64,000 bases of DNA from a virus (taxonomy: Duplodnaviria > Heunggongvirae > Uroviricota > Caudoviricetes), in IMG/VR virus record IMGVR_UViG_3300021979_000001, positions 130,948 to 194,947 of that record, one strand, 5' to 3'. Below are positions 3,020 to 61,427 of the stretch, piece after piece (the first letter of the stretch is position 1; every line of letters starts with the position of its first letter). The notes under the pieces are model-generated. The model was not told the origin of the DNA. It did not search any database and was given only the letters and a program-made list of their open reading frames with translations. Both the position numbers and the translations under genes were made by a program.

Positions 3020-4303
3020 TTATTCTCGAATTTTCTCGTTATCAATAAATTCGGCCCATTCAGGAATGAGAGCGGCGATGGAATTACCACGATGCTTTTC
3101 AATGCCCTGGGTGAATTTAACAAACGCATTGAAATGTTTGTCATACCAGCTTTCGCTTTGCATATAATTAACAACTTGATCAATACGATCAAACCAAATT
3201 TTTGATTGGTCCGGCGAATCAGGGCAATCCGTATATTCATCGGCAGAATGAGACGCTTTCCAATTCAATAACCGATCCGCTGCGATTTGTTTTAATTTGT
3301 CCGGCAACACTCTTATATTCAGGTGATCCGGGTGATCCAATACGTTCAGATAGGGGAACGATGTGATGTTTTTGAACTGAACCAGGTAATCCATGAGCGG
3401 AGTGATCGACAGAATGTTGTGTGCTTGAATACAAGCATGCACACCAATCATGATCTTACCATTTGCTGCCATGTCATTCAGGGTATGCAAATTCTTGTCG
3501 ATCACTTTCCATACCGAAGGATAACGAACGTAATCATTGATTTTGTCATAGCCATCAATCGAGACATTGAACAATACCTTATCAAATTTATCCCAATACT
3601 GAATGGCCCGAACCGGAACATTAGTCAGATTTGTGTTGTATTTAATTGTCATATTTTGTGCATATCCGCGATTAATGCACAATTGCAGCAAATCAAGATG
3701 GGCGTCGGCAAGCGTTGGCTCTCCCCCGGTAAAATAAATTTTAGTTATTGTCGATAAATGGGGTTCAATCGTGGTGAGCCAGCTATGATTATCCGGCCAT
3801 GACATATTGTTGGTTAGATGATTGTGTTCATCTTCTGTCAATTTTACCGGATTAACATCATTCCATTCTTTTAACCATTGGTTTGATGAAAATGGAGAAC
3901 ACATCACGCATTTGATATTGCACTTATTACCAAGACGCAAGTCAAGGTAAATAACATTGATGGGTGTGCTACCATCAGCATCCGTGATTTCTATTGGGTT
4001 CGGCACATACTTTTGGTAATTTTTATTTGCGATCATTCGCGGCGAACGCATTCCCTGGGCTTCTTCGCGGAAACATTTTGTGCATGTATTCGGTCGTTCT
4101 CCGGCCAACATTTGCAATCTGATGTCGCGATTGGTTTCACTATTCCACGCTTCTTCGGCAGTAGAGTTGTGTATTTTATGTTTCTTCCCGTTTGTCTGTA
4201 ACAGATTATTGGGGGGAACAGAATTACAGCAAACCCGGAATGACCCGGATGGTGATGTTGCAAGATGCATCCATGGTAGAGCGCAAAAGGTGTTAGATGT
4301 CAT
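3020..4303 (-). CDS. Radical SAM protein with N-terminal twitch/SPASM-like domain
   Basis: CALPW...CC...CxxC N-terminus; CNIKCVMC motif; FTGGEP; YNTN. Confidence 0.9.
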   Translation of the reverse strand: MTSNTFCALPWMHLATSPSGSFRVCCNSVPPNNLLQTNGKKHKIHNSTAEEAWNSETNRDIRLQMLAGERPNTCTKCFREEAQGMRSPRMIANKNYQKYVPNPIEITDADGSTPINVIYLDLRLGNKCNIKCVMCSPFSSNQWLKEWNDVNPVKLTEDEHNHLTNNMSWPDNHSWLTTIEPHLSTITKIYFTGGEPTLADAHLDLLQLCINRGYAQNMTIKYNTNLTNVPVRAIQYWDKFDKVLFNVSIDGYDKINDYVRYPSVWKVIDKNLHTLNDMAANGKIMIGVHACIQAHNILSITPLMDYLVQFKNITSFPYLNVLDHPDHLNIRVLPDKLKQIAADRLLNWKASHSADEYTDCPDSPDQSKIWFDRIDQVVNYMQSESWYDKHFNAFVKFTQGIEKHRGNSIAALIPEWAEFIDNEKIRE

Positions 4304-4314
4304 ATTGAATACTC

Positions 4315-5481
4315 CTAAATTTGAGTATGCAATATATCAGAAAGGGTTGGGAAAGTCAGGTTAAAATTGGTGCCACGTTTTTTATCTAACATAGCAATAT
4401 AATGAAAAAATGTTGTCGTTAATTTTGATCGATCTTCGCTCTTGACATATGATGAAACCAAACTGTTGTTGATATGTGAATGATTTACCGGCGATATGAT
4501 CCTGGCATCAAGATAACTTGGCGCACGCACTTTATTGAAACTGGGTTGGCGTGTCATTTTTTTGAAATTTTGATCGTTAATCCAAGATACAATTTCGTCA
4601 ATATCCAAGGCATTTAATGCTTGCAGGGTAATCCTGAAATCATATGTAAGACAATCCGGGCCAGTATCAATTTTCCTAATATTATCAATAAATGATGCAA
4701 GTGTTTGTGGGTATCGTATGTAAAATGATTTATCCGGGTTGCAATGTTCAATGGATGGCATCAATCGAACATGATTAAAATGTTTCCATATATCAAAAGC
4801 ATTTTGTGGGATAATCGACATATTGGTATTGTAAACCAGATCGATATTTGCTGCCCTTTTTTCTGAAATAAGTTTTTCAAGAACGATAAAATGTGGGCGA
4901 TCCAGTAATGGTTCTCCACCTTGAATATGGATGCGATTAACGTTTTTACATTTGTCAATCATTTCGTTGAAAACTTTACCGGTATCATATTTTCGTGGTT
5001 GATTATGATGCCAGTTCAGCGTTGATGTTATTGTTTCATCCATTGATTTGCTAAGCATGTATTTCTTTAACTCACCCCATTTGCTTGAATCCTCAACATT
5101 ACACATAACACATTGTAGATTACATGTATTATTCAAGCTAATAGAGACATGGGTGATATTATCAAGAGATATACCAACGGGTTTTGTATCTGTCATTTCC
5201 ACTTGGCGACGTGATGGAATACCGGAATCTTCATCCTGTTTGCACTTGCGACATGCTGATGGGAATACGCCAGCATTCAATGATGACCGAATGTTATTCA
5301 TGTTTTCGGAGAAAAACCAGTCTTCCAGTGGTTGTTCATCTACCATAATTTTATGATCTTTCGAGCCATAAAATGAATAATCCGTCACTGAACCACAGCA
5401 AACTTGACCATACCCAGACGGACGAATGAATAAATGATTCCAGGGTAAAGGACACCATGTCATTGCACAGTGATACTCCAA
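4315..5481 (-). CDS. Radical SAM protein with twitch/SPASM-like domain
   Basis: CPLPW...VCC...CRKC; CNLQCVMC; QGGEP; probable start MTWCPLPW. Confidence 0.9.
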   Translation of the reverse strand: MEYHCAMTWCPLPWNHLFIRPSGYGQVCCGSVTDYSFYGSKDHKIMVDEQPLEDWFFSENMNNIRSSLNAGVFPSACRKCKQDEDSGIPSRRQVEMTDTKPVGISLDNITHVSISLNNTCNLQCVMCNVEDSSKWGELKKYMLSKSMDETITSTLNWHHNQPRKYDTGKVFNEMIDKCKNVNRIHIQGGEPLLDRPHFIVLEKLISEKRAANIDLVYNTNMSIIPQNAFDIWKHFNHVRLMPSIEHCNPDKSFYIRYPQTLASFIDNIRKIDTGPDCLTYDFRITLQALNALDIDEIVSWINDQNFKKMTRQPSFNKVRAPSYLDARIISPVNHSHINNSLVSSYVKSEDRSKLTTTFFHYIAMLDKKRGTNFNLTFPTLSDILHTQI

Positions 5482-6026
5482 AATCCGGTATTGCTATCTT
5501 TTTCAAACGAATGATGGAAAGTTGCTCGGGCATCGTCTACTTGGTCATGGACATCCTGCCGGTGCGGCCAGCCATGAAACCCAATAATTTTTCCTCCCTT
5601 ACGAACTTTCGGTAACCAATGTAAGATATGCTGTTTCCATGGCGTTTTATTTGGTCCACGATCACAATCAATAACTAACAGATCAATTGTTTTATCAAAT
5701 GATACCTCGAACGCATCACCACGGATTGGATATGCATTGGGAACATCTTTCATATATTTTTTGAAGTTTTCGATACTATTATAGATAGTATCAACGGTAT
5801 CCAGCCGATACCCATGTCCCTTTTTAATAACTTCATCTTCAATCCACATATCAATTGCATACACCGATGATGTTGGTGCATTCATTGCTAATACATATGT
5901 GACCAATCCATAGCATGGTCCCAACTCAACAATTGTGGAATTATTTGGTAGTGTTATTACCTCGTCATATGCTTTCTTTAATTCATCATTATTGTGCCAG
6001 CCGGGAATGGTTAAATTTATGAGCAT
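5460..6026 (-). CDS. Class I SAM-dependent methyltransferase (Methyltransf_24-like)
   Basis: IVELGPCYG motif I, YAIDMW, IDLLVID, KVRKGGKIIG. Confidence 0.8.
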   Translation of the reverse strand: MLINLTIPGWHNNDELKKAYDEVITLPNNSTIVELGPCYGLVTYVLAMNAPTSSVYAIDMWIEDEVIKKGHGYRLDTVDTIYNSIENFKKYMKDVPNAYPIRGDAFEVSFDKTIDLLVIDCDRGPNKTPWKQHILHWLPKVRKGGKIIGFHGWPHRQDVHDQVDDARATFHHSFEKDSNTGFWSITVQ

Positions 6027-6457: not shown

Positions 6458-6691
6458 ATGGAGAAAGACATGACAACATTAAAAAATGTTGTTGATAAAA
6501 TCAACATTTCTGAAATACGACTCTTGGAAGAAACCGGCAATACGAAAAAGGTTCGGTTTGATTCCAAATTTGGCGCATTGCCGGTTAAAACAATGCACCA
6601 AATGTTCAATATCCCTAACGGGGATTTGTGTCTGTATTCAACCTCGTGGCAGACACGGGCTGATGGCACCCGGTTCAAATTGATGGTCTAA
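6458..6691 (+). CDS. Hypothetical protein
   Basis: 77 aa ORF; GGAG before the internal ATG (MTTL). Confidence 0.55.
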   Translation: MEKDMTTLKNVVDKINISEIRLLEETGNTKKVRFDSKFGALPVKTMHQMFNIPNGDLCLYSTSWQTRADGTRFKLMV

Positions 6692-7698
6692 CTATACCAT
6701 TTTCGTAGCGAACGACCGGTTTTGACAATATTGGTTGGGTATTGCACTGTTTTTGCAGTGCAATACAAACCATTTGGATTCTCGGTTGATACCTGTTCAC
6801 ACCAGCGTTTAACAAATTTTAAGAATCCTGGTAGTTCTAATCCATAAACACTTTCTATTGCACTAAACACATATGAGGATGGGTTTTCAGAATTATAAAA
6901 CTTCTGAATGCGTATGCGGCTCACCGGATTAGTGATGTTTGGGTCATTTTTCGTGACAAGATATGCAATCATTGCCCCTTCATCGACATCTGATTTGATA
7001 AAGTGTCTCTTTGAACCATCCACCAAAGATACACATGATTTCCAGGAACGCCCGGTTGACGCCCCTGCTATATCATAGGGATGCCGGGAAATGACAACCA
7101 TCAATGGTTGTTCCAGAATATTTATTCCCTGGCGAAAACGGTCATTTGTAAATAATAGCAAACCATTGTTAAATGACTGGCGCAAGTTATCGATCAATTC
7201 AACATATTGATCATATCTTGCCGGAATAATTTCTTCTGCATCAACGCCTTTTCTAACCCGATCCAACACCCGAACCGCTTTGGTGAACATCTTCCCGATG
7301 GAAAATTCTTTTCCATCCTTTGAAAGAAACATGCCCTTTTTATATTTTTGAATGACCGTTGAATCTTGAAAATCAGTGTTAATGGGTATGTTTATGGATG
7401 AAAACAGCTTATTCCAAAACTCAATATTTTTAACAGTTGGTGCCCAATAATGTTCTACAAATAAACTTAGGTCATTGATATATTTCAGTTCTAAAAAAAC
7501 ATCTTCCATTACACGAATATCATTGAACTGCGACATATCATTTGGTGTAAAATCAAAATATAGTCGATATGAATTATTCCCACGTTGAAATTTCTTAAAA
7601 CGTGCAAATATATCTTCATTTGTTGATCTATCCCAATTCTTCACATATGGTCGGGCCAGGGATATTGGATATGCTTCAAATAAGTCTGTTATTTTCAT
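6688..7698 (-). CDS. Putative virion-internal protein with leader MKITDLFE
   Basis: Leader shared with other late genes; ISRHPYDIAGASTGRSWKSC block. Confidence 0.7.
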   Translation of the reverse strand: MKITDLFEAYPISLARPYVKNWDRSTNEDIFARFKKFQRGNNSYRLYFDFTPNDMSQFNDIRVMEDVFLELKYINDLSLFVEHYWAPTVKNIEFWNKLFSSINIPINTDFQDSTVIQKYKKGMFLSKDGKEFSIGKMFTKAVRVLDRVRKGVDAEEIIPARYDQYVELIDNLRQSFNNGLLLFTNDRFRQGINILEQPLMVVISRHPYDIAGASTGRSWKSCVSLVDGSKRHFIKSDVDEGAMIAYLVTKNDPNITNPVSRIRIQKFYNSENPSSYVFSAIESVYGLELPGFLKFVKRWCEQVSTENPNGLYCTAKTVQYPTNIVKTGRSLRKWYS

Positions 7699-8894
7699 TT
7701 TTTATATTTGTCATATGGGTTATAAATTGAAAACTTCTTAACTACATTTGGGTCCATTTTAGCTATAAGATTAGGTGGCAATTCCGTCATACGGGTGCTA
7801 TTATAATTAAATTCTTTAATCGCGGGGTTATCAACTAGTTTAGTAAAAAATATCTGATCGCCATATATATCATTACCGTTTATCACAACGGTATTAATTG
7901 TTATTCGTGTATCGTTGCCGATGCCGCTTATTAACGCATCTGCTGTTTTTTTTCCCGGTATTCTGTCAGATAACGATACTACTAATTTGTTAATATTAAT
8001 TTTCGCACTAGGTTTGGCAAAGAAACGAACGTTTCTCATTTCAGAAATATTACATATATTAATGTCCCATACATTAACCCGCTTGAATTTTTCTGGTGAA
8101 TTATTATGGAAAAATACACTATCAAACGAACCTATTTTTAATGTTTTTGGCACATGTCCGACGGAATATGTATCTTTACCCAGGGTAATATCCGGGTTTT
8201 TTTGCATTGTGTTCATCAGATCAATTACAGTGAATGCGCTTGATGTTAAAAACACCGCTTGTGTTGCTTCCGCGCCGTGAATTAACCCATAACCGGGATC
8301 GTTAAAACCATCGTAACCGATTTTTCTTAATATCGCGTTCCATCGTTTGGTATTAACATATGTATATTCATCAAATTCGCTAATCCCACCCGCAGCAATT
8401 GCTTTAGTGAAGCCCCAAAGAAAACCAGCAGGAATGTTTACATAATTTTGGTTTGTTCTTGCTGCACTTCTAAAACGGGCAATCATTTCATCGGATAAAT
8501 TTAATACTGATTTCAGTTTGGCTATATCCGCTTCCAAATCACTTTCAGTATAATTTTTGATAAAATTAGGGTCTATATCGGATTTTAGAACATACAAATA
8601 TTTTCCACCATGATATGGTAGTAATGATAAACCACGATTTTCTTTTGGATTGCTAGACTTGTTGTATGGTTCAATATAAGTGTCCCATACATCTTGAATT
8701 CGAAACGCATATATTCCCAATGGGGAATCATGATTATCTGATGATTTTGGGTAAATGCCAACTTTTTTTACATCAGTTGTGTGAATATAAGCCGTTGGAT
8801 CATCTTTATATTGTTTTACAAAATCATACGCGCTTAGTTTAAAATTAACACTTGCGTTTCTTCGTTTTTCAAATAAATCGGCGATAAACATCAC
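7695..8894 (-). CDS. Putative virion-internal protein with ADP-ribosyltransferase-like domain (leader MFIADLFE)
   Basis: YIHTT...PLGIYAF...GYDGF...EATQAVFL pattern; ATAAATA upstream (8917-8923, - strand). Confidence 0.55.
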   Translation of the reverse strand: MMFIADLFEKRRNASVNFKLSAYDFVKQYKDDPTAYIHTTDVKKVGIYPKSSDNHDSPLGIYAFRIQDVWDTYIEPYNKSSNPKENRGLSLLPYHGGKYLYVLKSDIDPNFIKNYTESDLEADIAKLKSVLNLSDEMIARFRSAARTNQNYVNIPAGFLWGFTKAIAAGGISEFDEYTYVNTKRWNAILRKIGYDGFNDPGYGLIHGAEATQAVFLTSSAFTVIDLMNTMQKNPDITLGKDTYSVGHVPKTLKIGSFDSVFFHNNSPEKFKRVNVWDINICNISEMRNVRFFAKPSAKININKLVVSLSDRIPGKKTADALISGIGNDTRITINTVVINGNDIYGDQIFFTKLVDNPAIKEFNYNSTRMTELPPNLIAKMDPNVVKKFSIYNPYDKYKK

Positions 8895-8919
8895 AAAACC
8901 TATATCTAGTGTCGTTTAT

Positions 8920-9126
8920 TTATCCAAATGATAAGTTAAACAACACCTGATTCGATTCGTGTTTGAATTTGAACTCTATATTTGTATGTTCAGTTGGGGT
9001 GTATGCATAGAATACATCAGTCCCCAGAATAATATTATTGTTCGATAGCCAAGTTAACACCGTATCGAACTGTTCGGCATTATCAATATACACCGCGACG
9101 TAATGCCATTCCGCTAAATTTGACAT
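8920..9126 (-). CDS. Small hypothetical protein (C-terminal motif family)
   Basis: Ends IEFKFKHESNQVLFNLSFG. Confidence 0.6.
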   Translation of the reverse strand: MSNLAEWHYVAVYIDNAEQFDTVLTWLSNNNIILGTDVFYAYTPTEHTNIEFKFKHESNQVLFNLSFG

Positions 9127-9347
9127 TATTTACTTACCAAGAACACGAGTAAACAAATCACGGCAACCACACCAATTGCAATTAATACAATGTTGAAGAA
9201 TACCACGAACAACATGATAACCCAGAAAAATGCCCATACGTATGCCATGGGATCATGTAACAAATCCCAGGTCAGTGGAATATCGTAAATCGCGGTATAC
9301 AACACAACACCAACAAACCACCAGAACATTGTTTTTAATACAGGCAT
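9126..9347 (-). CDS. Small membrane protein
   Basis: 73 aa, two to three hydrophobic segments. Confidence 0.65.
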   Translation of the reverse strand: MPVLKTMFWWFVGVVLYTAIYDIPLTWDLLHDPMAYVWAFFWVIMLFVVFFNIVLIAIGVVAVICLLVFLVSK

Positions 9348-9437
9348 GTCATTTTTCCATTATGTTTATGATTAGGTTATCTATATGTTATCTGGTCCAT
9401 GACATGTTTGCAAGGGTAATTTTGTTCAACATTAATT

Positions 9438-10493
9438 TTATAGAATCGCCCGATTGCGACTACTCCAATCGCCCAGCATTTCTTTCATCTTTGTGCGATA
9501 ATCGGTAAGATATTTGGATAGCTGTGTTTCATTTTGGTTAGGATTATATACCAAATTTGTAGCATTGCTGGTGCCTTCAATATCAGCTACGATGTCGATA
9601 ATTTCCCCGGTTCGATTATTTTTGATCCATACCCGAGGTGTAGGTTTACCATTGATAATAACAGTCCCAGCTACCGGTGAAACATCCATTTCAGTTTCAA
9701 CCCGGATGATCACGGATGCAAACAATGGGGCCACGATACGCAGCGATGAACTAAGTTTTTGGTGGGAGAAAGGTTTGCCAATAGCCCAGTTTTTCCAATT
9801 GCCGATAACAAACGCTTCAATTTCTTCAATTAGCGTTACGGTTGATGCGTTTGAGGAAATACTTTCGTTGATGCCCATATTTGACATCGCTTCCTTCGCT
9901 TTGGCGACAAGACCATCAAACCCATCATATGCTTTCATGATCAACGCTTCATCATCGGTTTCCGCTGCTATAGTGGCATATTCCATGAATTCCGATAAAT
10001 CACCATTAATCACTTTGCGTAAAATATCGGGTTCTGCGGCAGCAAATTCATAAACAAGACCCGTCAATTCTGCAATTTGATGATCGTTGAGACTTTCTTC
10101 TGTATCGTCGGTTAATGGGATATATTGTTCAAACGAGGGATCACTGTTCAACCATTTTGCCAGGGCAGTAACACTTCCTGCGGTCCCGTCCATCACCTTA
10201 TGCTCAACAATGGTATAGAGATTAAGTTCGGTTGCGGTGACCGAATATACCAAAATCACCTTTCCATGCACCAAATGAAAGTGCCAAAACCCTTTTAATT
10301 TTCCGTTTTTAAATGGAGTATCTTTTGCGGACACCGGATCGGTTGACGTTTTCTTTTTTTCAATAAAATCATCAATTGATTTGGCAATACCTGGAAACCC
10401 ACGCATATATGCTGCGCGGTCTTTAACAAATCTGTCTGTCATGTAAACATTACGTTCTGTGACACTTTCTGAAATAATATCGATATATCGCAT
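9438..10493 (-). CDS. Multidomain protein with N-terminal YafQ/RelE-like mRNA interferase domain (leader MRYIDIISE)
   Basis: KDTPFKNGKLKGFWHFHL..VILVY..LYTIVEH resembles the YafQ core; late promoter at 10535-10541. Confidence 0.65.
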   Translation of the reverse strand: MRYIDIISESVTERNVYMTDRFVKDRAAYMRGFPGIAKSIDDFIEKKKTSTDPVSAKDTPFKNGKLKGFWHFHLVHGKVILVYSVTATELNLYTIVEHKVMDGTAGSVTALAKWLNSDPSFEQYIPLTDDTEESLNDHQIAELTGLVYEFAAAEPDILRKVINGDLSEFMEYATIAAETDDEALIMKAYDGFDGLVAKAKEAMSNMGINESISSNASTVTLIEEIEAFVIGNWKNWAIGKPFSHQKLSSSLRIVAPLFASVIIRVETEMDVSPVAGTVIINGKPTPRVWIKNNRTGEIIDIVADIEGTSNATNLVYNPNQNETQLSKYLTDYRTKMKEMLGDWSSRNRAIL

Positions 10494-10532
10494 TTGTCAA
10501 TTTTCGCCTAATTATTTAAATTACATATTTAC

Positions 10533-10565
10533 TTTATTTATCTGTATAAAATAAAACATGAATTG
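10533..10565 (-). promoter_or_regulatory. 33-bp late promoter cassette, copy 1
   Basis: tttatttatctgtataaaataaaacatgaattg; contains ATAAATA on - strand; one mismatch to 11908-11940. Confidence 0.8.
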
Positions 10566-10723
10566 GGTGTGCTATTCTCTATTAAGTATAGATAACGCAT
10601 AAAAATATCCATTAACATAACGTGCCATTATTTATAAAAAACGGGACACTGGTATGTCCCGTTTGATTAATGCGATCATCGATTATGTGATGATATTAAT
10701 TTTTATTATGCCATCATCATAAT

Positions 10724-11818
10724 TTACACATCAACAAGATTGTTCGGGTTGATGTCATTTATAAAACGACGGAAATTTGGTTTTTTCGAGGATGACCGCA
10801 TCTTGTCAATTCGTTTGGTATCCCAAAATACATATGCCGTTTGGTCCACCCCGGCAGTGGCAAAATTTCCATTGAATCTAAACCCGACATACCCAAGATG
10901 TTTAAGTTCCCGAATAAGGGTAGTCCAGAAATCAGATGATTTAACCAAAGTGAGACCAAGATGGGTATGGTTGATAAAATTATCAAACGATGGATATTGG
11001 CCGTTGCCTCCAAAATTGAAGTCTTGCCACGCAGCAGGTGCCGGATTGGTCTTTACTTTGTCAATCCAATCATCAAAGGTATGAAATAACTCCATGTTAT
11101 TAGCACTATATACCCCGGCAATCCGCAAATCGTGTTTTTTATCCTCACCGTAGAGATTGATTAAATATCCACGTAAAAAATGAATAAGTTTCATTGTCAT
11201 TGGTGCATCGGCATCATATGTGTTATCCGCATACGATGCAGGAATATCATATACCGACACCCTAGCATTGCCGGTGTATTTTACAATATTGTAATGACCT
11301 TGGGTAGTTTTCACAATGCGATAGTCATCGCCGGATTGTTTAATATCATCTATAAGTTGTTTATATGATGAAATTAATATTTGTTTGCTTTTTGTTCGCC
11401 ATATATTTTGATATTTCTGATTAAGTTTTTCTTCTGCGTTATGAAGTTCTTTGATGTTGTCATAACCTAACTTTTCTCGAATATCACCGATTTCAGACCA
11501 TAACTGTAATTGAATTTTATTCTTTTCTTCTTCTATAATATCAACACACTGCGAATATAACCAATCTCGGATTACTCCGGTTCTACTTTTTCCATTCCGT
11601 AATTCATATCCAGTAAACACTATATCATTGTCATGTTTTGCATAATCACGGGCAACTTTTGAATTAGTGGTGAGATATATCCCTGGACCAAATAACGCAG
11701 TTGACGATGTTTTATCATTATCATATGAATCATAAGTAACACCATCACCACGATATAATCTAATATTTTCCTGGTCTTCATACAAGTTTAGTGTTTCAAA
11801 TAAATCATGAATACGCAT
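10724..11818 (-). CDS. ADP-ribosyltransferase-like protein (leader MRIHDLFE); paralog of the C-terminal half of 11945..13759
   Basis: LYRGDG...ALFGPGIYLT...ARDY...GYVGFRFNG..YVFWD; start moved to ATG 11818 after AAGGA. Confidence 0.65.
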   Translation of the reverse strand: MRIHDLFETLNLYEDQENIRLYRGDGVTYDSYDNDKTSSTALFGPGIYLTTNSKVARDYAKHDNDIVFTGYELRNGKSRTGVIRDWLYSQCVDIIEEEKNKIQLQLWSEIGDIREKLGYDNIKELHNAEEKLNQKYQNIWRTKSKQILISSYKQLIDDIKQSGDDYRIVKTTQGHYNIVKYTGNARVSVYDIPASYADNTYDADAPMTMKLIHFLRGYLINLYGEDKKHDLRIAGVYSANNMELFHTFDDWIDKVKTNPAPAAWQDFNFGGNGQYPSFDNFINHTHLGLTLVKSSDFWTTLIRELKHLGYVGFRFNGNFATAGVDQTAYVFWDTKRIDKMRSSSKKPNFRRFINDINPNNLVDV

Positions 11819-11907
11819 TAATATGTCCTTTAGCGCCGTATAATTATGTCGAATAGTCATCAACAATGCATTGATTAATATGTAAAAAATAATAGCTATA
11901 ATGTTTT

Positions 11908-11940
11908 TTTATTTATCGGTATAAAATAAAACATGAATTG
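11908..11940 (-). promoter_or_regulatory. 33-bp late promoter cassette, copy 2
   Basis: tttatttatcggtataaaataaaacatgaattg. Confidence 0.8.
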
Positions 11941-11944
11941 AATT

Positions 11945-13759
11945 TTAATTATCAATTAATTCTTTTATTTCAGAATAATCAATATCGTTGATCGAAATAT
12001 GATTAAGACGCGGTTTTTTCAACATTGTTTTTGATTTTGAAATAAAATCTGCATCCCAAAAGACATATGATTTTTGTTTAATACCAGAAGTCCCATGATT
12101 TCCATTGAACCTAATACCAACATTTCCTTTATTAGTCATATAATGAATAAAACGTTCCCAAAACAATGCTGGATTATTCATCATCGTTATACCTGGCCCG
12201 GTATCATGTAAAAACTGATATAATGATGGGTATTCACCATTCCCACCAAATGCCTCATTTCCCAAATATGGTCGTGCTGGAATATCTTTTACCTTTTCTA
12301 TCCAATCATTAAATGAATAATTGTTATTCCCATCTTGTTCTAATGAAAGATTGAGTTTTCCAATCATACCGAAATCATTTACCAAAATATCACGAATTAT
12401 TGAAATAATACCCAAATTCATTGGAGCATCTGCATCTATCGTTTTGTTGACATATGATATTGGTAAAAGATATGTCGAAATATTACTATTAGATGTGTTT
12501 TGCACTATATCATAGTAACCTTGCGTTCTTTTAATAATTCTATAATCTTTTTTTCGATTTTTTAAATCATTAATAAATAATTTAATTTCTATATTTACAT
12601 TTTTCTTAAACGTTTTTTTAAGATCATCTTCTAGTTTGGTTATGTCTTTAATATATTGATCGTTTTCATCATCAGTTAACTCTTTATATTTGTTTTTATC
12701 AAAACCATATTTTACAAAAACCGTAGACATTTTATTATTATATTGAGTATTATATTCTGACTTAATTTTATTGATCTTATTAGTTAATTCTTTTCTAACC
12801 CATAAATTGATTATTTCTGATCGATCAGATGCAATATGTTTATTTCTGATTGTCCTACCAGAAAAAACAATATCATCAGTATTGCTAGTATAATCTTTCG
12901 CAACTTTTGGTGATGATGTTAAATATATGCCAGGACCAAACAACGCATTTTCATCAGTTTTACCAACATCATATACATCAAATTTATTTCCATCACCTCT
13001 ATATAATTTTATCATGTCACTAGGTGTTGAAACATTTTCTGAAATATTGTCACTCTGTGGCGACCACCCCCCGTTGTTAAAAATTGATTTAATTTGGTTG
13101 GCGTTGAACACAACAAGTGAAACCCCTGCTTCATCGTTCACCAATGTGCTATCAAATCCTTGGCGACGAAGATCATTGATGTTTTTTTTATCATCTGTTA
13201 CCGATGCAGTATATGATGGGAAATGATTATAAAATAACGTGCGTTGTCTTGTGACAACATCCTGTAATGTTGGCAACTTCGATTTTTTACGTAAAATTTC
13301 TCCCTGTTCTCCGTGCAAATCATCATACAGATAAATTATAATCATTTTATGTATGGGATTGGTTGTATTATCTAACAATTTCTGTTCGTCAACCCCAGTC
13401 ATTATGTCTGGCAACGAGTCAAACCATTCCTGATCCTGTTTTGATAAATCAAGGCCATTGATTCGGGTTGCATTAACATATACCGGAATAAGTCGCATGT
13501 TGCCCTGGGACTTTTTACCATTATCCCATACCCCGGCGATGCTCCCTGATACGGCTCCTTTTGGCGTAAACGAAAGATACACTCCGCCGCGTCCCCCAGC
13601 ATTAACATCAAAGCTGTCAAAATCAGCGGTAGTTGCATGATACATGCGGATAGGATGCCCTGAATTATCCACCACTTTGCTATTTGATAACCACGATGTC
13701 CGGTTTTGAACGGTTTCATCAATGGTTGTTGTGTGGTTTATTATGTCCTGGTAACGCAT
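11945..13759 (-). CDS. Polyvalent protein with two ADP-ribosyltransferase-like domains (ART-PolyVal-like)
   Basis: Domain 1: SKVVD..MYHAT..FDSFD..GVYLS..GFDS..VVFNANQIKS; domain 2: LYRGDG..GPGIYLT; late promoter 13787-13793. Confidence 0.7.
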   Translation of the reverse strand: MRYQDIINHTTTIDETVQNRTSWLSNSKVVDNSGHPIRMYHATTADFDSFDVNAGGRGGVYLSFTPKGAVSGSIAGVWDNGKKSQGNMRLIPVYVNATRINGLDLSKQDQEWFDSLPDIMTGVDEQKLLDNTTNPIHKMIIIYLYDDLHGEQGEILRKKSKLPTLQDVVTRQRTLFYNHFPSYTASVTDDKKNINDLRRQGFDSTLVNDEAGVSLVVFNANQIKSIFNNGGWSPQSDNISENVSTPSDMIKLYRGDGNKFDVYDVGKTDENALFGPGIYLTSSPKVAKDYTSNTDDIVFSGRTIRNKHIASDRSEIINLWVRKELTNKINKIKSEYNTQYNNKMSTVFVKYGFDKNKYKELTDDENDQYIKDITKLEDDLKKTFKKNVNIEIKLFINDLKNRKKDYRIIKRTQGYYDIVQNTSNSNISTYLLPISYVNKTIDADAPMNLGIISIIRDILVNDFGMIGKLNLSLEQDGNNNYSFNDWIEKVKDIPARPYLGNEAFGGNGEYPSLYQFLHDTGPGITMMNNPALFWERFIHYMTNKGNVGIRFNGNHGTSGIKQKSYVFWDADFISKSKTMLKKPRLNHISINDIDYSEIKELIDN

Positions 13760-14391: not shown

Positions 14392-15621
14392 CTATTTCCA
14401 ATATGGTTTGAATTCTGGATATACCGTCAAAAACGATGTTCCATGAAACTTATCTTGCACATCAACATATTTTTGAAAGGCGGGCATAAGATCGCTCCAA
14501 TCCTCACCATTCATATAATTAATAACATTATCACCATTTTTTATCCAATAATCACGGCGTTTTCGCATACGATTACTAAACCATGGCGCATCGTCTAATG
14601 ACTTAAGATTCTCCCATTCCTGGGTAACTTGTTGTTTTAGTTCTTTCGGTAATACCTTAACACTAATTGCACGGGGATATTGAACCAAACTGGTATGAAA
14701 ATTACTACCAAGAGTGGCAAAATATTTAATAGTGTCAATCATACGAGTGATATTCATCATGCTTGATGTAAATGTCCCTGTCAACATAATATTTGGGAGA
14801 ACACTCGCCTTTTTAATATTTTCTTCAACTTTTTTCAAGTTTCCGCCAACTCGCAAGTAATCATATATTTTGGGATCGGCATCGACACTGATACGGATGC
14901 TGACTTCTTTAAAATGCTTCCATACATCAAGAATGCTTTTTCCCTTATATGATAAAGTAGAAAAATTACTGTTATAATTCAAAGTGATGTGGTGGGCATG
15001 GGGGATCATCCGTTCCAGAAAATCATAATGATCCGGGTGATATAATGGTTCACCACCGGTTGTCATAATTTCAGTTAAATTTGGAGCCAGGGCAACAATT
15101 TCATCCATGATTTCAGTTGTCAGCTTAAATGTTGTGTTTTCAGGTTTAAATCCTAATTTCGTTTGTTGATCCATTAATCCTTTGTCTTTTGATAGGTTGT
15201 ATTCCCACAGACTGCTATAATCTGGGGAACAATGTCTACACATAAGATTGCAAATATTATCAAATCTGATTTCGACTGAACCTATTTTGTTCAATGGATA
15301 CGAACCATCATCGTTTACATTGGCAAGAATATCCGCGTCTTTGACGTTGGGGTAAATATCGTTTCTTGCACGATGCCGCAGACTTTCCGCGCCACTTCGT
15401 TCAATATCCCGACAGCTTTTACATCCGCGAGGTGATTTCCCAGCAATCATATCCTGGCGGATAGATTTCATTGCATCGTTATTCCAAACATCTGTCAATT
15501 TTTCAGTTTTCAAATCGCCAACCTGATTTGGAAAGCGCCAGCACGGTGTGACCTTACCTTTATGCTTGATATTCAAATGATGAAACGGCATCACACAATA
15601 CACAGAACAGTTGTTTGACAC
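14392..15621 (-). CDS. Radical SAM protein with twitch/SPASM-like domain
   Basis: CVMPF..PCW..CKSC; CNLMCRHC; TGGEP. Confidence 0.9.
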   Translation of the reverse strand: MSNNCSVYCVMPFHHLNIKHKGKVTPCWRFPNQVGDLKTEKLTDVWNNDAMKSIRQDMIAGKSPRGCKSCRDIERSGAESLRHRARNDIYPNVKDADILANVNDDGSYPLNKIGSVEIRFDNICNLMCRHCSPDYSSLWEYNLSKDKGLMDQQTKLGFKPENTTFKLTTEIMDEIVALAPNLTEIMTTGGEPLYHPDHYDFLERMIPHAHHITLNYNSNFSTLSYKGKSILDVWKHFKEVSIRISVDADPKIYDYLRVGGNLKKVEENIKKASVLPNIMLTGTFTSSMMNITRMIDTIKYFATLGSNFHTSLVQYPRAISVKVLPKELKQQVTQEWENLKSLDDAPWFSNRMRKRRDYWIKNGDNVINYMNGEDWSDLMPAFQKYVDVQDKFHGTSFLTVYPEFKPYWK

Positions 15622-16295: not shown

Positions 16296-17510
16296 TTATT
16301 CGATCATATCGTTTATCGCTAATGTGATAAAGTCAGATCGAGGGATTACATCTGTAACAACCGTGCCAAACTTGCGAATGCTTACGGTGTCATTTTTTTC
16401 ATCATTTGGTCCAACGATGACCAAATACGGGATTTTGAATATCATATGATCTTTGACTTTTTTCGTCATATGGCATTCACGATCATCAACAATGGCTCGT
16501 TTGCAATCGATTGATGCCGCAATACTACGTGCGTAAACATCATTTTCCGGTTTTACACTAATGATTGCAAACTGCACCGGTTGAAGCCAAAATGGAAGAT
16601 TTCCGGCATGATGTTCAAGCAGGATACCAATAAATCGTTCGAACGATCCTAAAATGGCACGGTGTAGCATAATCGGCGTTTGGATTGATCCATCTTGCGC
16701 CGTATATTTTGCACCCAATCTTGCCGGTAAAATCATGTCCAATTGCAATGTGCCGCATTGCCACTCGCGACCATGATGATCAGTTAGGGCAAATTCCAGC
16801 TTGGGACCATAAAATGCCCCTTCACCTTCATAAACATCATACGTCAATCCGGCGGTTTTCACCGCATCCGCCAATGCCGTTTCTGCTAAATCCCAAGTAG
16901 CATCATCACCGGCGCGCTTGGTAGAGTCGGTGGGCCTGGTGCTGAAACCAACCTTAACATTCGTGAAACCGAAATGCTGATATACACGCATTAACAGGTT
17001 ACAAAATGCCGTTGTTTCCTTTTGGATTTGGTCTTCGGTGCAAAAAATGTGTGCATCGTCTTGGGTAAATTGGCGCACTCGCATAATCCCATCAAGTGCG
17101 CCAGATGGTTCATTTCGATGACAACATCCAAATTCAGACAATCGTATAGGTAGATTTTTATACGACACAATCATATTATTGAAAATCTGAACATGTCCGG
17201 GACAATTCATGGGCTTGATTGCAAATATTCTGCCATCACCATCGACATCACTTGCGCCGGTTGCAACGAACATGTTGTCTTTGAATTTGTCCCAATGACC
17301 CGTTTTGTGCCACAAACTTTCGTTGATTAATTGCGGTGTCTTAACTTCCTGATATTCCACCAATTGTCCACGAATATACTGCTCGATGGTATTATACAAG
17401 GTATATCCACGCGGATGCCAAAAGATGGACCCTGCTGCGTCATCCTGGACGTGGAACAGGTCTAATTCGCGCCCAATAGTTCGATGATTTTTTATGTTAT
17501 TGTATGACAT
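16296..17510 (-). CDS. thrS: Threonyl-tRNA synthetase lacking the N-terminal TGS and editing domains
   Basis: NHRTIGRELDLF, KPMNCPGH, HRNEPSG, RVRQFTQDDAHIF, GEGAFYGPK, HRAILGSFERFIG; anticodon-binding domain. Confidence 0.95.
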   Translation of the reverse strand: MSYNNIKNHRTIGRELDLFHVQDDAAGSIFWHPRGYTLYNTIEQYIRGQLVEYQEVKTPQLINESLWHKTGHWDKFKDNMFVATGASDVDGDGRIFAIKPMNCPGHVQIFNNMIVSYKNLPIRLSEFGCCHRNEPSGALDGIMRVRQFTQDDAHIFCTEDQIQKETTAFCNLLMRVYQHFGFTNVKVGFSTRPTDSTKRAGDDATWDLAETALADAVKTAGLTYDVYEGEGAFYGPKLEFALTDHHGREWQCGTLQLDMILPARLGAKYTAQDGSIQTPIMLHRAILGSFERFIGILLEHHAGNLPFWLQPVQFAIISVKPENDVYARSIAASIDCKRAIVDDRECHMTKKVKDHMIFKIPYLVIVGPNDEKNDTVSIRKFGTVVTDVIPRSDFITLAINDMIE

Positions 17511-17691
17511 ATAATGCCTATTAGCCTCCGAGTTTTTGCCCGCCGGAATATTACATACTTTCATCACATAAAGATAGTTTAAATGTTGCTACATCGTGAA
17601 AAATATCAACAATGACACCGCGATAGATAAAAAATGATTGTTAACTGTTTTTGAACAGGTTAGGTAATGAGTAGTAGGAGGTATATGCGAT

Positions 17692-18225
17692 ATGCAAGAT
17701 GTGTTGATGAAACCGGTGCGGATCGTCAAGCGCATTATCGGAGTTTCGGACGATTTGCGTGAAAATACCAAATATAAAAATGGAAAAATGCCTATGCCAA
17801 AATACACTTCGATTCCTGAATCTGAATATATGTATCACTTTTGTTTAGGTATGATATATCGAAAGAAAAATGGTCATCCGGCTGATTCGGTTTTGTTGAT
17901 GAAACAAAAACATCCGTCGTGGCAGGAAGGAAAATTTAACGGTATCCAGGGAGAAGTAAAAATAAATGAAACACCAATATCGGCAATTATTCGAAAAACA
18001 AGGGAAGAAACAGGAATTATAACAACCCAGAACGATTGGGATTTTATTGAAACACACGTGAACGATGACAGTGTTATACACTCATTTGCATGTGTGCTGC
18101 CAGATGACCGGTTTATTTTTAAAAGCAAAACAGACGAATTGATTATCGTCGCTGACCCTCATAACTTGCCAGAAAATTTAGCAAATGAGGTCCATCGCTT
18201 GATTGGCGATTCGTATCCACAATAA
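17692..18225 (+). CDS. Nudix hydrolase
   Basis: Nudix box GEVKINETPISAIIRKTREETGI. Confidence 0.8.
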   Translation: MQDVLMKPVRIVKRIIGVSDDLRENTKYKNGKMPMPKYTSIPESEYMYHFCLGMIYRKKNGHPADSVLLMKQKHPSWQEGKFNGIQGEVKINETPISAIIRKTREETGIITTQNDWDFIETHVNDDSVIHSFACVLPDDRFIFKSKTDELIIVADPHNLPENLANEVHRLIGDSYPQ

Positions 18226-50818: not shown

Positions 50819-52507
50819 ATGTTATTAGCTGATTTGTTTGAAGGAACGACTGACACCGGATCACGGTATTTTATCGAAGAACTTGATTTATCACCTGGAC
50901 GGATTATTGATTCCAAGATTGGTAATGCCCGTATATCATACACCGTATATGATGACTACATCAAACTGCATTCGATACGAGTAAGTCAACCAAACCGCAA
51001 AAAAGGAAATGCAATCAATGCGTTACGTGAACTTTGTGCGGCGGCTGATACGTATGGGTATGATATTTTTCTTGATGCCTCGCCACTTGATAAACGAACC
51101 CGTCTTGATAAATTAGTTGCATTATATCGAAAATTTGGTTTTGAACTCACCGGAAAAACAATCAATCCGGTTGGCGATCCCCAAATGGTCAGGAAAGCAC
51201 AACCGCCAAAGTTAAATGATAATAGTAATGTAATTTCAGAAAACACTAACTTACAGCAATCGGTAAATAATCCTGCACTGATGACACTAGCAGAATACAT
51301 GACGTTTATGAACCCATCAGATAAACATCATTCGGAAAATGCATATAATTATACGGTGAATTCACTAAATAATATTTCCAATTTTTTCAGTAATCAGGTA
51401 ATGCTACCGTCCGAATGGAAAAACTATTCAGTTTATTCTGATAATAACCAAAACTATTTTATTCGGTTCCAGGACAAGAATGTCGGTTGGGTAGAACATG
51501 GTGTATTGTATATTGATAAACAGTATTATTTAAGAGGATTTGAAGACGCATTCGCCCAGGATTTAGAAATAAAATATGTGAAATATCCCGAACACCATTT
51601 TACTGAAATGCTTGCCGCGAAAGCAAAACGTGAATACCCAATTTTGTTACAAAATTTGTTATCAAAGGGCGAGCAATTTCAGCTACGCAAAAACGAACAC
51701 GATGACCTGGCAATTTTGAATGATCTTGGTCTCATTGTCTCTATAGCACAGAATGAATATGGATGCATTCTAGTATCCACCACAAAAGAATATCGAGGAT
51801 ATGGTTTCGGACGATTACTTGGTATTAGGTTTCGTGAATTACACCCGGATTTTAATACCGGTGGTGTAACCCCAAATGGACAAAAGCAAGTCGTTCGTAT
51901 TTGGAAAAAATACATAAGTGATGCAATAAAAAATGGGCTTTATACCCGCATGCTACGGGCTGGTAATATAACCAAGTCGCGAATCAATGACATCCTGTCT
52001 GATTACGATGGGGCCAAATTTACCTCAAATATCAACAAAACCACCAATATTGCAGCTAAAATACCAGATGATTACAAAAATTGGTTGGTATTTAATTATA
52101 ATAATTCAATAATTGTTTATCATCGTTCTGTATATGATGCATCACCCGCAGACGACGATTTGGAAAAATACATTGTTGGGTATTTACATTTGGAACACAT
52201 GTCGTCGGGAATACCAACATTACACGATATTCAATATGTGAATCAACGGGCAGAAAAGATTTTAATTTACGGATCGTTATTCTTAACAAACAACAAACTT
52301 GCAATAGATCACGAAGCATCCGATTTTACCGATAGTATCAAAACTCTCGATGATGTGACAATTAATAATAACATGGCATCAACAACTCGCGATCTGAATA
52401 TTTTATCGAAACTGTTTGATTATGAAAAAATCATTCGTTTAAAAAATGATCCATATAGCGAATATATGTATGCAATACAATCTGCCGCAGAATCAAAATG
52501 GCTGTGA
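50819..52507 (+). CDS. Polyvalent protein with two GNAT-like domains (leader MLLADLFE); putative virion protein
   Basis: RVSQPNRKKGNA..LYRKFGF and TKEYRGYGFG..TPNG; ATAAATA 50775-50781. Confidence 0.7.
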   Translation: MLLADLFEGTTDTGSRYFIEELDLSPGRIIDSKIGNARISYTVYDDYIKLHSIRVSQPNRKKGNAINALRELCAAADTYGYDIFLDASPLDKRTRLDKLVALYRKFGFELTGKTINPVGDPQMVRKAQPPKLNDNSNVISENTNLQQSVNNPALMTLAEYMTFMNPSDKHHSENAYNYTVNSLNNISNFFSNQVMLPSEWKNYSVYSDNNQNYFIRFQDKNVGWVEHGVLYIDKQYYLRGFEDAFAQDLEIKYVKYPEHHFTEMLAAKAKREYPILLQNLLSKGEQFQLRKNEHDDLAILNDLGLIVSIAQNEYGCILVSTTKEYRGYGFGRLLGIRFRELHPDFNTGGVTPNGQKQVVRIWKKYISDAIKNGLYTRMLRAGNITKSRINDILSDYDGAKFTSNINKTTNIAAKIPDDYKNWLVFNYNNSIIVYHRSVYDASPADDDLEKYIVGYLHLEHMSSGIPTLHDIQYVNQRAEKILIYGSLFLTNNKLAIDHEASDFTDSIKTLDDVTINNNMASTTRDLNILSKLFDYEKIIRLKNDPYSEYMYAIQSAAESKWL

Positions 52508-60866: not shown

Positions 60867-61427
60867 ATGTCCGATATGCGTCAATTAATTGATTTAGTCG
60901 AAGCACAGCCTCGGGCGGGTGCCAGAACGACTGCGAAAACAAAATCGATGGAATACGGGGATTTTACCCGAGAAGTGTTTTTAACGCATTTGAAAAAAAT
61001 TGCTAAAGAATTATTGGCAGTGAATGATTTGGGTAAAAAATATTCAATGACTATTCACGACAAAAACGTTTTAATCAATGGGTTCAACCCACTGATGAAA
61101 AGTGTCAAAACATCCCTGGCACAAGTAGAAAAAATGGTTAAAAATGCATCAATTCTACCAGAAGATGCAAACCATACCAGAAATGTATTATGGAGCGCAG
61201 AACAATATCGTGTTCATTTAGTCAGTATTAGGGATGATTTGCGCTTACGCTGGTATGGCATCGATAACCCGGAAGTTAAAAAGATGGTCAAAGACCTTTA
61301 TGATACCATCGTAGTTGTCGTTAACGATCTAACTAAACTTATCGATTTAATCGAAAACAAAGATACCAATAACAATGCCAAAAATAATAAAGGCAAAGGT
61401 ATGTTTGGGTTTCTCAAAGGACTGTGA
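60867..61427 (+). CDS. Putative virion-internal protein (leader MSDMRQLIDLVE)
   Basis: ATAAATA 60816-60822; GGGAG RBS. Confidence 0.65.
   Translation: MSDMRQLIDLVEAQPRAGARTTAKTKSMEYGDFTREVFLTHLKKIAKELLAVNDLGKKYSMTIHDKNVLINGFNPLMKSVKTSLAQVEKMVKNASILPEDANHTRNVLWSAEQYRVHLVSIRDDLRLRWYGIDNPEVKKMVKDLYDTIVVVVNDLTKLIDLIENKDTNNNAKNNKGKGMFGFLKGL

What the first reader, a model, noticed from the sequence alone, without database searches (positions are those of the whole stretch)
9438..10493. YafQ-like mRNA interferase in a packaged polyprotein with a possible built-in inhibitor
Seen: after the leader comes a roughly 100 aa RelE/YafQ-like domain keeping His residues at positions matching YafQ H63 and H87, then a very acidic helical domain and a third domain, separated by Glu-containing linkers (DTEES, INES). 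No antitoxin gene is adjacent. Inference: the acidic domain masks the toxin until prohead-protease cleavage, and the active RNase is injected to cut host mRNA on ribosomes.
Basis: partly seen in the sequence, partly recalled or inferred. Interest (0 to 1): 0.75.

Follow-up and report, generated by a model that had tools for sequence, protein, structure and literature searches.

The report
Phage head-cargo YafQ-like RNase module
A 457-kb T4-like jumbo phage encodes a three-part protein: a T4-style "pack me into the head" tag, a YafQ/RelE-type RNA-cutting domain joined to a conserved acidic helical domain, and an orphan third domain. It is probably loaded into the virion and injected with the DNA, but no experiment yet shows packaging, activity or self-inhibition.

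Summary
Window 9438-10493 (minus strand) encodes a 351-aa protein. Residues 12-118 model with high confidence as a RelE/YafQ fold (VIA Z 10.9-11.5 to YafQ-type toxins). The family keeps the equivalents of YafQ H63 (H73), H87 (H98) and K48 (K57). Residues 136-207 are an acidic five-helix domain (net -10). Residues 211-351 are an orphan domain. No antitoxin is adjacent.

New here: the YafQ-like plus acidic domain pair is a conserved ~200-aa unit in at least 155 phage or metagenome protein clusters. Most start with the same leader. About 16 proteins of this genome carry that leader, among them ADP-ribosyltransferases, a NUDIX and an amidoligase. It resembles the T4 capsid-targeting sequence MKTYQEFIAE, and the genome encodes a gp21-type prohead protease. 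Of 22 homologues with a C-terminal extension, 20 have a [LIVM]-x-E motif in the junction window, here I-N-E|S. The linker between the YafQ and acidic domains has no such conserved site.

So packaging and polyprotein processing are plausible. The proposed unmasking by a cut at DTEES is not supported, and self-inhibition stays untested.

The scan noted similar leader-bearing YafQ-like proteins and cargo polyproteins on other DNA. This is a new variant of known kinds: T4 internal proteins/Alt and BECR RNases of polyvalent proteins.

The parts
10629..10654 (-). Intrinsic-terminator-like hairpin with a T run that closes the upstream ART gene, followed at once by TATAAATA (10629-10636), which matches the T4 late-promoter consensus
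   Evidence: Read directly; TATAAATA located. Across the window TATAAATA is no more frequent than chance (9 found against 8.3 expected), so only its position is suggestive.
10535..10541 (-). ATAAATA, 48 nt upstream of the ATG: candidate late promoter
   Evidence: The same heptamer lies 31-40 nt upstream of head genes, including the prohead protease. It occurs within 200 nt upstream of 7 of 16 leader-bearing genes, against 5% of random windows.
10467..10493 (-). Leader, residues 1-9, MRYIDIISE. It resembles a capsid-targeting propeptide and ends in I-S-E, an (L/I)-x-E protease-site pattern
   Evidence: Recurs on about 16 ORFs of the genome and on most homologues. T4 IPII and IPIII start MKTYQEFIAE. 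pLDDT is low (61-70) over residues 1-10.
10140..10460 (-). YafQ/RelE-fold domain, residues 12-118: beta-alpha-alpha-beta4 core plus an extra C-terminal helix at 105-116. Conserved K57, D58, H71, H73, G77, Y83, H98
10089..10139 (-). Acidic linker, residues 119-135, containing DDTEES; it has no (L/I)-x-E site
9873..10088 (-). Conserved acidic five-helix domain, residues 136-207, net charge -10, with the family motifs D-R and F-G-G. Its function is unknown
   Evidence: It has no relatives in PDB, Pfam or PHROGs. Only weak HTH-like fold matches, Z below 5.
9864..9872 (-). Module junction I208-N209-E210, followed by S211: candidate prohead-protease cleavage site
   Evidence: 20 of 22 homologues with a C-terminal extension have [LIVM]-x-E in a 28-residue window around this junction (ISE, VRE, LTE, LSE, IRE and others); short homologues end here
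9441..9863 (-). Orphan C-terminal domain, residues 211-351, without any cysteine. The model is of low confidence
   Evidence: No homologues in 1.8 billion representative proteins or among the family. pLDDT is 36-74. ESM Atlas look-alikes have a transglutaminase-like fold (TM 0.5-0.7); this is a lead only.

Best explanation
The gene encodes a cargo protein of the phage head. It is transcribed late.

Proposed steps, all inferred:
1. The 9-residue leader directs the protein into the prohead core.
2. The gp21-type prohead protease removes the leader after I-S-E9.
3. The same protease separates the orphan C-terminal domain after I-N-E210.
4. The YafQ-type domain and the acidic helical domain have no conserved cleavage site between them, so they stay together as one unit of about 200 residues.
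5. That unit is ejected into the next host with the DNA. There the YafQ-type domain acts as a metal-independent endoribonuclease. By kinship the target is ribosome-bound mRNA, which would blunt host translation or induced defences at the very start of infection. H98 would be the general acid and H73 or H71 the base.

The acidic domain most likely tempers or directs the RNase. Autoinhibition is possible but not shown.

What is shown: the fold, the conserved residues, the modular family, the recurrence of the leader, the junction motif, and a gp21-type protease gene in the genome. What is inferred: packaging, cleavage, injection, RNase activity and the target.
For: Fold and active site:
- VIA Z 10.9-11.5 and Foldseek TM 0.72-0.80 to YafQ-type toxins.
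- The family profile's top PDB hits are all YafQ/RelE-type; 27 of 54 members hit Pfam YafQ_toxin.
- H98 (YafQ H87, the residue whose loss abolishes cleavage; PMC4652777) is invariant.
- H73 (H63) is kept in 101 of 102 sequences, D58 in 102 of 102, K57 (K48, 16S rRNA contact) in 84 of 102, and H71 is His in 88 and Arg in 12 of 102.

Packaging:
- The leader occurs on 12 or more N-termini against about 1.2 expected.
- It sits on enzyme-type proteins: three ART-PolyVal, an amidoligase, a NUDIX, and weaker sub-threshold GNAT- and YunG-like hits.
- It looks like the T4 CTS MKTYQEFIAE. In T4 those 10 residues suffice for head targeting, and residues 8 and 10 govern processing (PMC9026906).
- The genome encodes a Peptidase_S77 prohead protease.
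- A late-promoter-like ATAAATA lies upstream, as it does for head genes.

Processing:
- [LIVM]-x-E lies at the module junction in 20 of 22 extended homologues.
- Two extended homologues carry ART-PolyVal after the junction.

Precedent:
- BECR-fold RNases are predicted cargo in polyvalent proteins (PMC5512222).
- Nucleases fused to the CTS have been packaged in T4.
Against: - There are no virion proteomics, no expression data and no activity data.
- P0001 alone is below Pfam's YafQ threshold (13.4 against 30 bits).
- The equivalents of YafQ H50, D67 and F91 are not kept (T59, K78, D102), so the chemistry or the target may differ.
- The nearest cultured relatives, Sinorhizobium phage Phosso and PA5oct, have neither the module nor the exact M-x3-D-L-F-E leader. 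No proteome of a cultured phage can therefore be transferred.
- Some homologues lack the leader, including one in a contig that has an S77 protease.
- The cleavage specificity of this phage's protease is unknown.
- An mRNA interferase made late could harm the phage's own late translation unless it is restrained.
Confidence: 0.55

Rival explanations
1. The acidic domain is a built-in antitoxin that covers the YafQ active site. The prohead protease cuts the DTEES linker, and the freed RNase is injected.
For: The N domain is basic in 98 of 102 family members and the helical domain acidic in 100 of 102, like toxin-antitoxin pairs. The two-domain model has pTM 0.71 with linker pLDDT 77-85, which hints at a defined arrangement. 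No separate antitoxin was found.
Against: DTEES has no L or I at P3. Only 11 of 102 homologues have [LI]-x-E in this linker, whereas the next junction is conserved. Solo forms without the acidic domain or a neighbouring antitoxin exist in phage contigs. The helical domain resembles no known antitoxin. The net charges of the two domains do not co-vary.
Confidence: 0.12
2. The protein is not packaged. It is a cytoplasmic single-chain toxin-antitoxin-like protein, comparable to fused systems such as CapRel or EzeT (recalled from my own knowledge, not checked here). It would act in the producing cell, for example in shut-off, exclusion of other phages or counter-defence. The shared N-terminal motif would then serve another purpose, such as translation initiation or turnover.
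For: Some family members lack the leader, and some sit in non-T4-like contexts next to RecT or tail genes. The domain charges are complementary. There are no direct packaging data.
Against: The leader closely resembles the proven T4 CTS and ends in a protease-type site. It marks a set of Alt-like ARTs and other effector-type enzymes. The junction motif only makes sense with a Glu-specific processing protease. A late-promoter-like element lies upstream.
Confidence: 0.2
3. The RelE-fold domain is not an RNase here. The 200-residue unit would be a non-catalytic carrier or binding module, for instance one that binds the head core or the ribosome, and it would bring variable C-terminal cargo domains into the head.
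For: The unit always sits N-terminal to varied cargo such as ART-PolyVal or orphan domains, behind a cleavable junction. The equivalents of YafQ H50, D67 and F91 are missing.
Against: Most family members are the 200-residue unit alone, with no cargo. The invariant or near-invariant residues (D58, H71, H73, Y83, H98) align with or neighbour YafQ active-site residues, which is the pattern expected of a working enzyme.
Confidence: 0.1

Closest known systems
E. coli YafQ and H. pylori HP0894/HP0892 (YafQ family of the RelE/ParE superfamily, type II toxins; ribosome-dependent mRNA interferases)
   Same: Same fold (Z 10.9-11.5, rmsd 2.1-2.2 over 88 residues). The K-D motif, the H63 and H87 equivalents and the basic alpha-1 residues are kept.
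   Different: There is no DinJ-type partner gene. The H50, D67 and F91 equivalents are replaced. The domain has an extra C-terminal helix, is fused to a conserved acidic helical domain, carries an N-terminal leader and is encoded by lytic-type jumbo phages. P0001 is below the Pfam threshold.
Phage T4 internal proteins IPI-III and Alt (capsid-targeting sequence plus gp21 processing)
   Same: A short N-terminal leader of the form M-[KR]-x-x-x-[DE]-[FIL]-[IF]-x-E, compared with T4 MKTYQEFIAE. The genome has a gp21-type protease. The leader also sits on ADP-ribosyltransferases, as it does on T4 Alt.
   Different: The cargo is a RelE-family RNase module, which is not known among T4 internal proteins. 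The protein has several domains joined by an internal junction site. Nothing has been shown experimentally.
Polyvalent proteins and their PBECR RNase domains (Iyer et al. 2017, PMC5512222); MuF polymorphic toxins (Jamet et al. 2017, PMC5576092)
   Same: The concept is the same: BECR-fold RNases and ARTs combined in multidomain proteins predicted to travel in the virion. Two homologues fuse the module to ART-PolyVal.
   Different: No hit to any PBECR Pfam family. The domain is of the YafQ type, with a His-His active site rather than helix-His plus Ser/Thr. There is no embedded zincin peptidase and no MuF or portal fusion; release seems to rely on the prohead protease. No downstream immunity gene is evident, whereas 89% of MuF toxins have one.
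Cami1 (CARF-RelE, cA4-activated ribosome-dependent RNase)
   Same: A RelE-fold RNase fused to a regulatory domain in one chain; structural match Z 9.5.
   Different: The partner domain is a CARF sensor and lies N-terminal. Cami1 is a host defence protein, not a phage protein.

Membership tests
YafQ family (Pfam PF15738, RelE/ParE superfamily) | RelE/YafQ fold (beta-alpha-alpha-beta-beta-beta-beta) | tested here: met
   AlphaFold pLDDT above 90. 4q2u_B Z 10.9, 4ls4_A Z 11.5. Foldseek TM 0.72-0.80.
YafQ family (Pfam PF15738, RelE/ParE superfamily) | Score above Pfam's gathering threshold (30 bits) | tested here: not met
   P0001 scores 13.4 bits, E 0.094. 27 of 54 relatives hit the family at E 0.1 or better, best E 8.9e-9. 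This is a divergent sister group rather than a core member.
YafQ family (Pfam PF15738, RelE/ParE superfamily) | Catalytic residues H87 (essential) and H63 | tested here: met
   H98 is kept in 102 of 102 and H73 in 101 of 102 sequences, and they align to H87 and H63. Their roles are taken from PMC4652777.
YafQ family (Pfam PF15738, RelE/ParE superfamily) | H50, D67 and F91 equivalents | tested here: not met
   The aligned residues are T59 (a variable column), K78 (K or R in most) and D102. H71, at the D61 position, may compensate; that is an inference.
YafQ family (Pfam PF15738, RelE/ParE superfamily) | Cognate DinJ/RelB-type antitoxin gene in an operon | tested here: not met
   The neighbours have no such domain. 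No RelB or PhdYeFM was found in the genome. The RelB search did not ring above cut-off in its control genomes, so it is weak evidence.
YafQ family (Pfam PF15738, RelE/ParE superfamily) | Ribosome-dependent mRNA cleavage | not testable with these tools
   Needs a biochemical assay.
T4-type capsid-targeted internal proteins | N-terminal leader of about 10 residues resembling the CTS and ending in (L/I)-x-E | tested here: met
   MRYIDIISE compared with T4 MKTYQEFIAE. The leader recurs far above chance.
T4-type capsid-targeted internal proteins | gp21-type (Peptidase_S77) prohead protease in the same genome | tested here: met
   E 3.8e-26, above the cut-off.
T4-type capsid-targeted internal proteins | Presence in the virion and removal of the leader | not testable with these tools
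   The phage is uncultured (an IMG/VR record). The nearest isolates lack the gene.
Polyvalent proteins (Iyer et al. 2017) | Two or more unrelated effector-type domains in one polypeptide of a phage, linked to virion delivery | tested here: inconclusive
   There are three domains, but only one has a predicted activity. Two homologues are fused to ART-PolyVal, and ART-PolyVal genes lie next door.
Polyvalent proteins (Iyer et al. 2017) | PBECR-family RNase domain or embedded zincin peptidase | tested here: not met
   The Pfam scan at E up to 1 lists no PBECR or peptidase family.
Single-chain (fused) toxin-antitoxin | C-terminal domain that docks on the toxin domain and inhibits it | tested here: inconclusive
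   Charge complementarity and pTM 0.71. No coordinates or contact map were available. No covariation signal was found.

The most novel reading that the evidence does not exclude
The 200-residue unit is a self-restrained RNase. The conserved acidic helical domain would hold the YafQ-type domain inactive in the producing cell and inside the head. The RNase would become active only after ejection, for example through unfolding and refolding during passage, host proteolysis of the acidic domain, or binding of a host target. That would make it a widespread phage-borne single-chain toxin-antitoxin used as an injected weapon. It would also serve as a standard N-terminal carrier to which other effectors are attached through a protease-cleavable joint.
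Probability: 0.2. Interest if true: 0.8.

Novelty: new variant of a known kind. Interest (0 to 1): 0.58.

Why it matters
RelE/YafQ toxins are known as partners in bacterial toxin-antitoxin pairs. I found no report of a packaged RelE-family toxin; my one literature search on this point returned only irrelevant hits, so this is not a thorough check. Here a divergent YafQ-type domain defines a family of at least 155 clusters that appears confined to uncultured phages. In this family the domain is permanently tethered to an acidic partner domain and sits behind a T4-like head-targeting tag.

If packaging and activity are confirmed, three things follow:
- An mRNA interferase joins the list of proteins that phages inject at the first moment of infection.
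- There would be a natural example of a toxin delivered without a separate antitoxin gene.
- The leader together with the [LIVM]-x-E joints would form a modular system for loading many enzymes into jumbo-phage heads. In this genome the leader marks ARTs, a NUDIX, an amidoligase and several unknowns.

The leader motif is also a practical handle for predicting head cargo in related uncultured phages.

Tried and rejected
- Complex prediction of residues 10-122 against 130-212 gave no verdict (score 0.00). It counts neither for nor against binding.
- Mutual-information covariation on 123 sequences gave no inter-domain signal above noise. The top pairs were artefacts of invariant columns.
- The net charges of the two domains do not correlate (r = -0.08).
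- tblastn of P0001 against 50,697 phage records found nothing.
- The word-index protein search found only the protein itself. The exhaustive HMMER search was needed to find the family.
- A scan of GTDB species genomes with one narrow peptide pattern found no relative. This is limited by the pattern and does not prove absence.
- The profile search in Phosso and PA5oct was empty, and so was the exact leader DNA pattern.
- Helical domain: no credible relative in PDB sequences (best E 0.036, centrin), PHROGs or Pfam. Fold matches were only Z below 5, to HTH-like bundles. The ESM Atlas gave generic helical look-alikes.
- C-terminal domain: the Pfam hits (HTH_45, DIM) are far below threshold. The similarity to the YunG-like leader protein L013 is not significant (E 0.18). 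Transglutaminase-fold look-alikes are a lead only, and the domain has no cysteine.
- A literature search for packaged RelE toxins returned only irrelevant hits, because the term matched "release".

Full report
**What is there**

The finding's coordinates hold one ORF on the minus strand, 9438-10493, of 351 aa. The window lies in a 457,165-bp IMG/VR virus record with 38% G+C, which CheckV rates as complete. The record encodes a T4-type major capsid protein and a gp21-type prohead protease, Peptidase_S77, at E 3.8e-26. Judged by the protease, the nearest isolates are Sinorhizobium phage Phosso (469 kb, 64% identity) and the PA5oct group (55%).

**The YafQ-like domain**

Alone, the protein gives only a sub-threshold Pfam hit to YafQ_toxin (E 0.094, residues 18-99 over profile positions 5-84 of 88). 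An exhaustive HMMER search of 1.8 billion representative proteins found 155 relatives.

- 27 of 54 aligned relatives hit YafQ_toxin, the best at 8.9e-9.
- A profile of the family finds YafQ/RelE-type toxins as its eight best PDB sequence hits.
- AlphaFold models residues 11-210 at pLDDT above 90, with the beta-alpha-alpha-beta4 order of the RelE fold.
- Foldseek gives TM 0.72-0.80 to E. coli YafQ.
- VIA-align gives Z 11.5 to the H. pylori YafQ-type toxin 4ls4, Z 10.9 to E. coli YafQ (model 13-103 against chain 3-92), and then YoeB, RelE, ParE and Cami1.

K57-D58 pair with K48-D49. Across 102 sequences D58, Y83 and H98 are invariant. H73 and G77 are kept in 101 of 102. H71 is His in 88 and Arg in 12.

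In E. coli YafQ, H87A abolishes cleavage, H50 and H63 back each other up as the base, and K48 contacts 16S rRNA (PMC4652777). The equivalents of H50, D67 and F91 are not kept here (T59, K78, D102). The family therefore keeps the essential acid and one base candidate, and it adds a conserved His at the D61 position. This is the conservation pattern of an active but divergent enzyme.

**A conserved two-domain unit**

Most relatives are about 200 aa long and cover residues 12-214 of this protein. They comprise the YafQ-like domain with an extra helix (105-116), a linker, and a five-helix domain carrying the conserved motifs D-R and F-G-G.

- The N domain is net basic in 98 of 102 sequences (median +5).
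- The helical domain is net acidic in 100 of 102 (median -6; -10 in this protein).
- The helical domain has no relatives in Pfam, PHROGs or PDB sequences.
- Its only fold matches are weak, to HTH-like bundles.
- Residues 211-351 have no homologues at all and model poorly.

**The leader**

The N-terminus MRYIDIISE belongs to a motif, M-[KR]-x-x-[DE]-[LI]-[FI]-x-E, found on about 16 ORFs of this genome.

- A stricter count gave 12 N-termini against 1.1-1.4 expected from internal positions.
- The exact DNA pattern for M-x3-D-L-F-E occurs five times, and never in the reversed control.
- The bearers are enzyme-type proteins. Three carry ART-PolyVal, including the two genes just upstream at 10724-11818 and 11945-13759. 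Others are an amidoligase, a NUDIX, weaker GNAT-like and YunG-like hits that are below Pfam's cut-offs, and several unknowns.
- Among the homologues, 86 of 102 have [LIVMF]-x-E within their first 14 residues, typically MRLFE|I.

T4 IPII and IPIII begin MKTYQEFIAE. Those ten residues are sufficient for head targeting, and positions 8 and 10 govern gp21 processing. T4 Alt, an ADP-ribosyltransferase, loses a 7-residue propeptide (PMC9026906). In the models the leader is the only low-confidence part of the N-terminal unit.

**Joints**

Every close homologue that continues beyond the 200-aa unit has a [LIVM]-x-E motif right where short homologues end. Examples are INE|S (here, E210), ISE|S, VRE|A, LTE|S, LSE|S and IRE|T. 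In all, 20 of 22 extended homologues have the motif in a 28-residue window, where I estimate roughly a third would be expected by chance. After the joint come varied domains, twice ART-PolyVal.

By contrast, the linker between the YafQ-like and helical domains has [LI]-x-E in only 11 of 102 sequences. The DDTEES of this protein has Asp or Thr at P3. I infer that the prohead protease trims the leader and releases C-terminal cargo, but leaves the RNase and the acidic domain joined.

**Expression signals**

The upstream ART gene ends in a hairpin with a T run, followed directly by TATAAATA. An ATAAATA lies 48 nt before the ATG. The same heptamer lies 31-40 nt before the prohead protease gene and other head genes. 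It occurs upstream of 7 of 16 leader-bearing genes, against 5% of random windows. This fits late, T4-style transcription, but it is not proof.

**Does the acidic domain mask the toxin?**

For masking:
- The charge pairing is nearly universal.
- The two-domain model has pTM 0.71 with a fairly confident linker.
- No other antitoxin was found.

Against masking as a requirement:
- Solo forms exist in phage contigs. They end just after the extra helix and have neither a helical domain nor an adjacent antitoxin gene on the same strand.

I could not inspect coordinates. Covariation was uninformative. The question stays open; I give autoinhibition in any form about one in four.

**Context in what is known**

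Iyer et al. predicted that BECR-fold RNases (PBECR) and ARTs in polyvalent proteins are packaged and injected (PMC5512222). Jamet et al. described MuF toxins of temperate phages, usually followed by an immunity gene (PMC5576092). T4 shows how a CTS and gp21 load and trim cargo, and nucleases have been loaded experimentally by this route.

This protein combines these ideas in a form I did not find described:
- a YafQ-type domain, not a PBECR-type one;
- permanent fusion to an acidic domain;
- a T4-like leader;
- protease-type joints instead of an embedded peptidase.

The family was not found in 50,697 phage records by tblastn, in Phosso or PA5oct, or in GTDB species genomes with one narrow pattern. 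BFVD holds only a solo look-alike. Earlier notes of this scan describe a leader-bearing YafQ-like protein and a head-cargo polyprotein on other DNA. I did not check those notes, and they are not independent evidence.

**Verdict**

This is a new variant of known kinds. Interest is moderate to high, because it defines a large uncharacterised phage family and gives testable predictions about cleavage and packaging.

Noticed in passing
window 6688-13759 (minus strand): Five consecutive genes all start with the same leader type: MKITDLFE, MFIADLFE, MRYIDIISE, MRIHDLFE and MRYQDIIN...IDE. Two of them are ART-PolyVal/DUF3990 paralogues. The region looks like a head-cargo gene island, analogous to the variable internal-protein loci of T4-like phages.
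   Followed up: partly
genome G000:C1 44495, 60287, 93426, 124558, 209474, 283703, 328280, 359501, 427073; window 50819-52507 and 60876-61427: Further leader-bearing ORFs are scattered over the genome: Amidoligase_2 (433 aa), NUDIX (200 aa), ART-PolyVal (252 aa), a YunG-like protein (164 aa), a GNAT-like protein (562 aa) and several unknowns. The ART-PolyVal, YunG-like and GNAT-like scores are below Pfam's cut-offs. The leader could serve as a predictor of head cargo in this phage group.
   Followed up: partly
window 9441-9863 (residues 211-351 of the protein): For this orphan C-terminal domain, the ESM Atlas structure look-alikes are transglutaminase-like cores (TM 0.5-0.7). The domain has no cysteine, so if the fold is right it would be a non-catalytic version. 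The model is of low confidence.
   Followed up: partly
window 8920-9347 (minus strand): Two small ORFs lie directly downstream of the target: a 73-aa protein that looks strongly hydrophobic and membrane-like by eye, and a 68-aa acidic protein. Neither has a family hit. No equivalent downstream ORF was evident in the five homologous loci whose ORFs I listed, so I did not treat them as immunity genes.
   Followed up: partly
genome G000:C1 about 223264 (minus strand), outside the window: The ORF over the major capsid protein (Gp23) match starts MSKLFETQ, that is, with an L-F-E like the cargo leaders. The ORF next to it starts MRNYINICEE.
   Followed up: no
window 3020-6026 and 14392-15621 (minus strand): Three paralogous radical SAM proteins carry an N-terminal SPASM-type Cys domain, and there is also a Methyltransf_24 methyltransferase. 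Their substrate is unknown.
   Followed up: no
window 16296-17567 (minus strand) and 17692-18225 (plus strand): A class II aminoacyl-tRNA synthetase core with an HGTP anticodon-binding domain (423 aa; tRNA-synt_2b E 1.4e-48), which appears to lack the N-terminal parts of a full-length enzyme. A NUDIX hydrolase lies next to it.
   Followed up: no
L002 8001-10679 (metagenome contig SRR30952582_52008): An 892-aa homologue carries the leader, the YafQ-like unit, a V-R-E junction and then a long extension with a weak, sub-threshold ART-PolyVal match. It lies about 2.5 kb upstream of a large terminase gene.
   Followed up: partly
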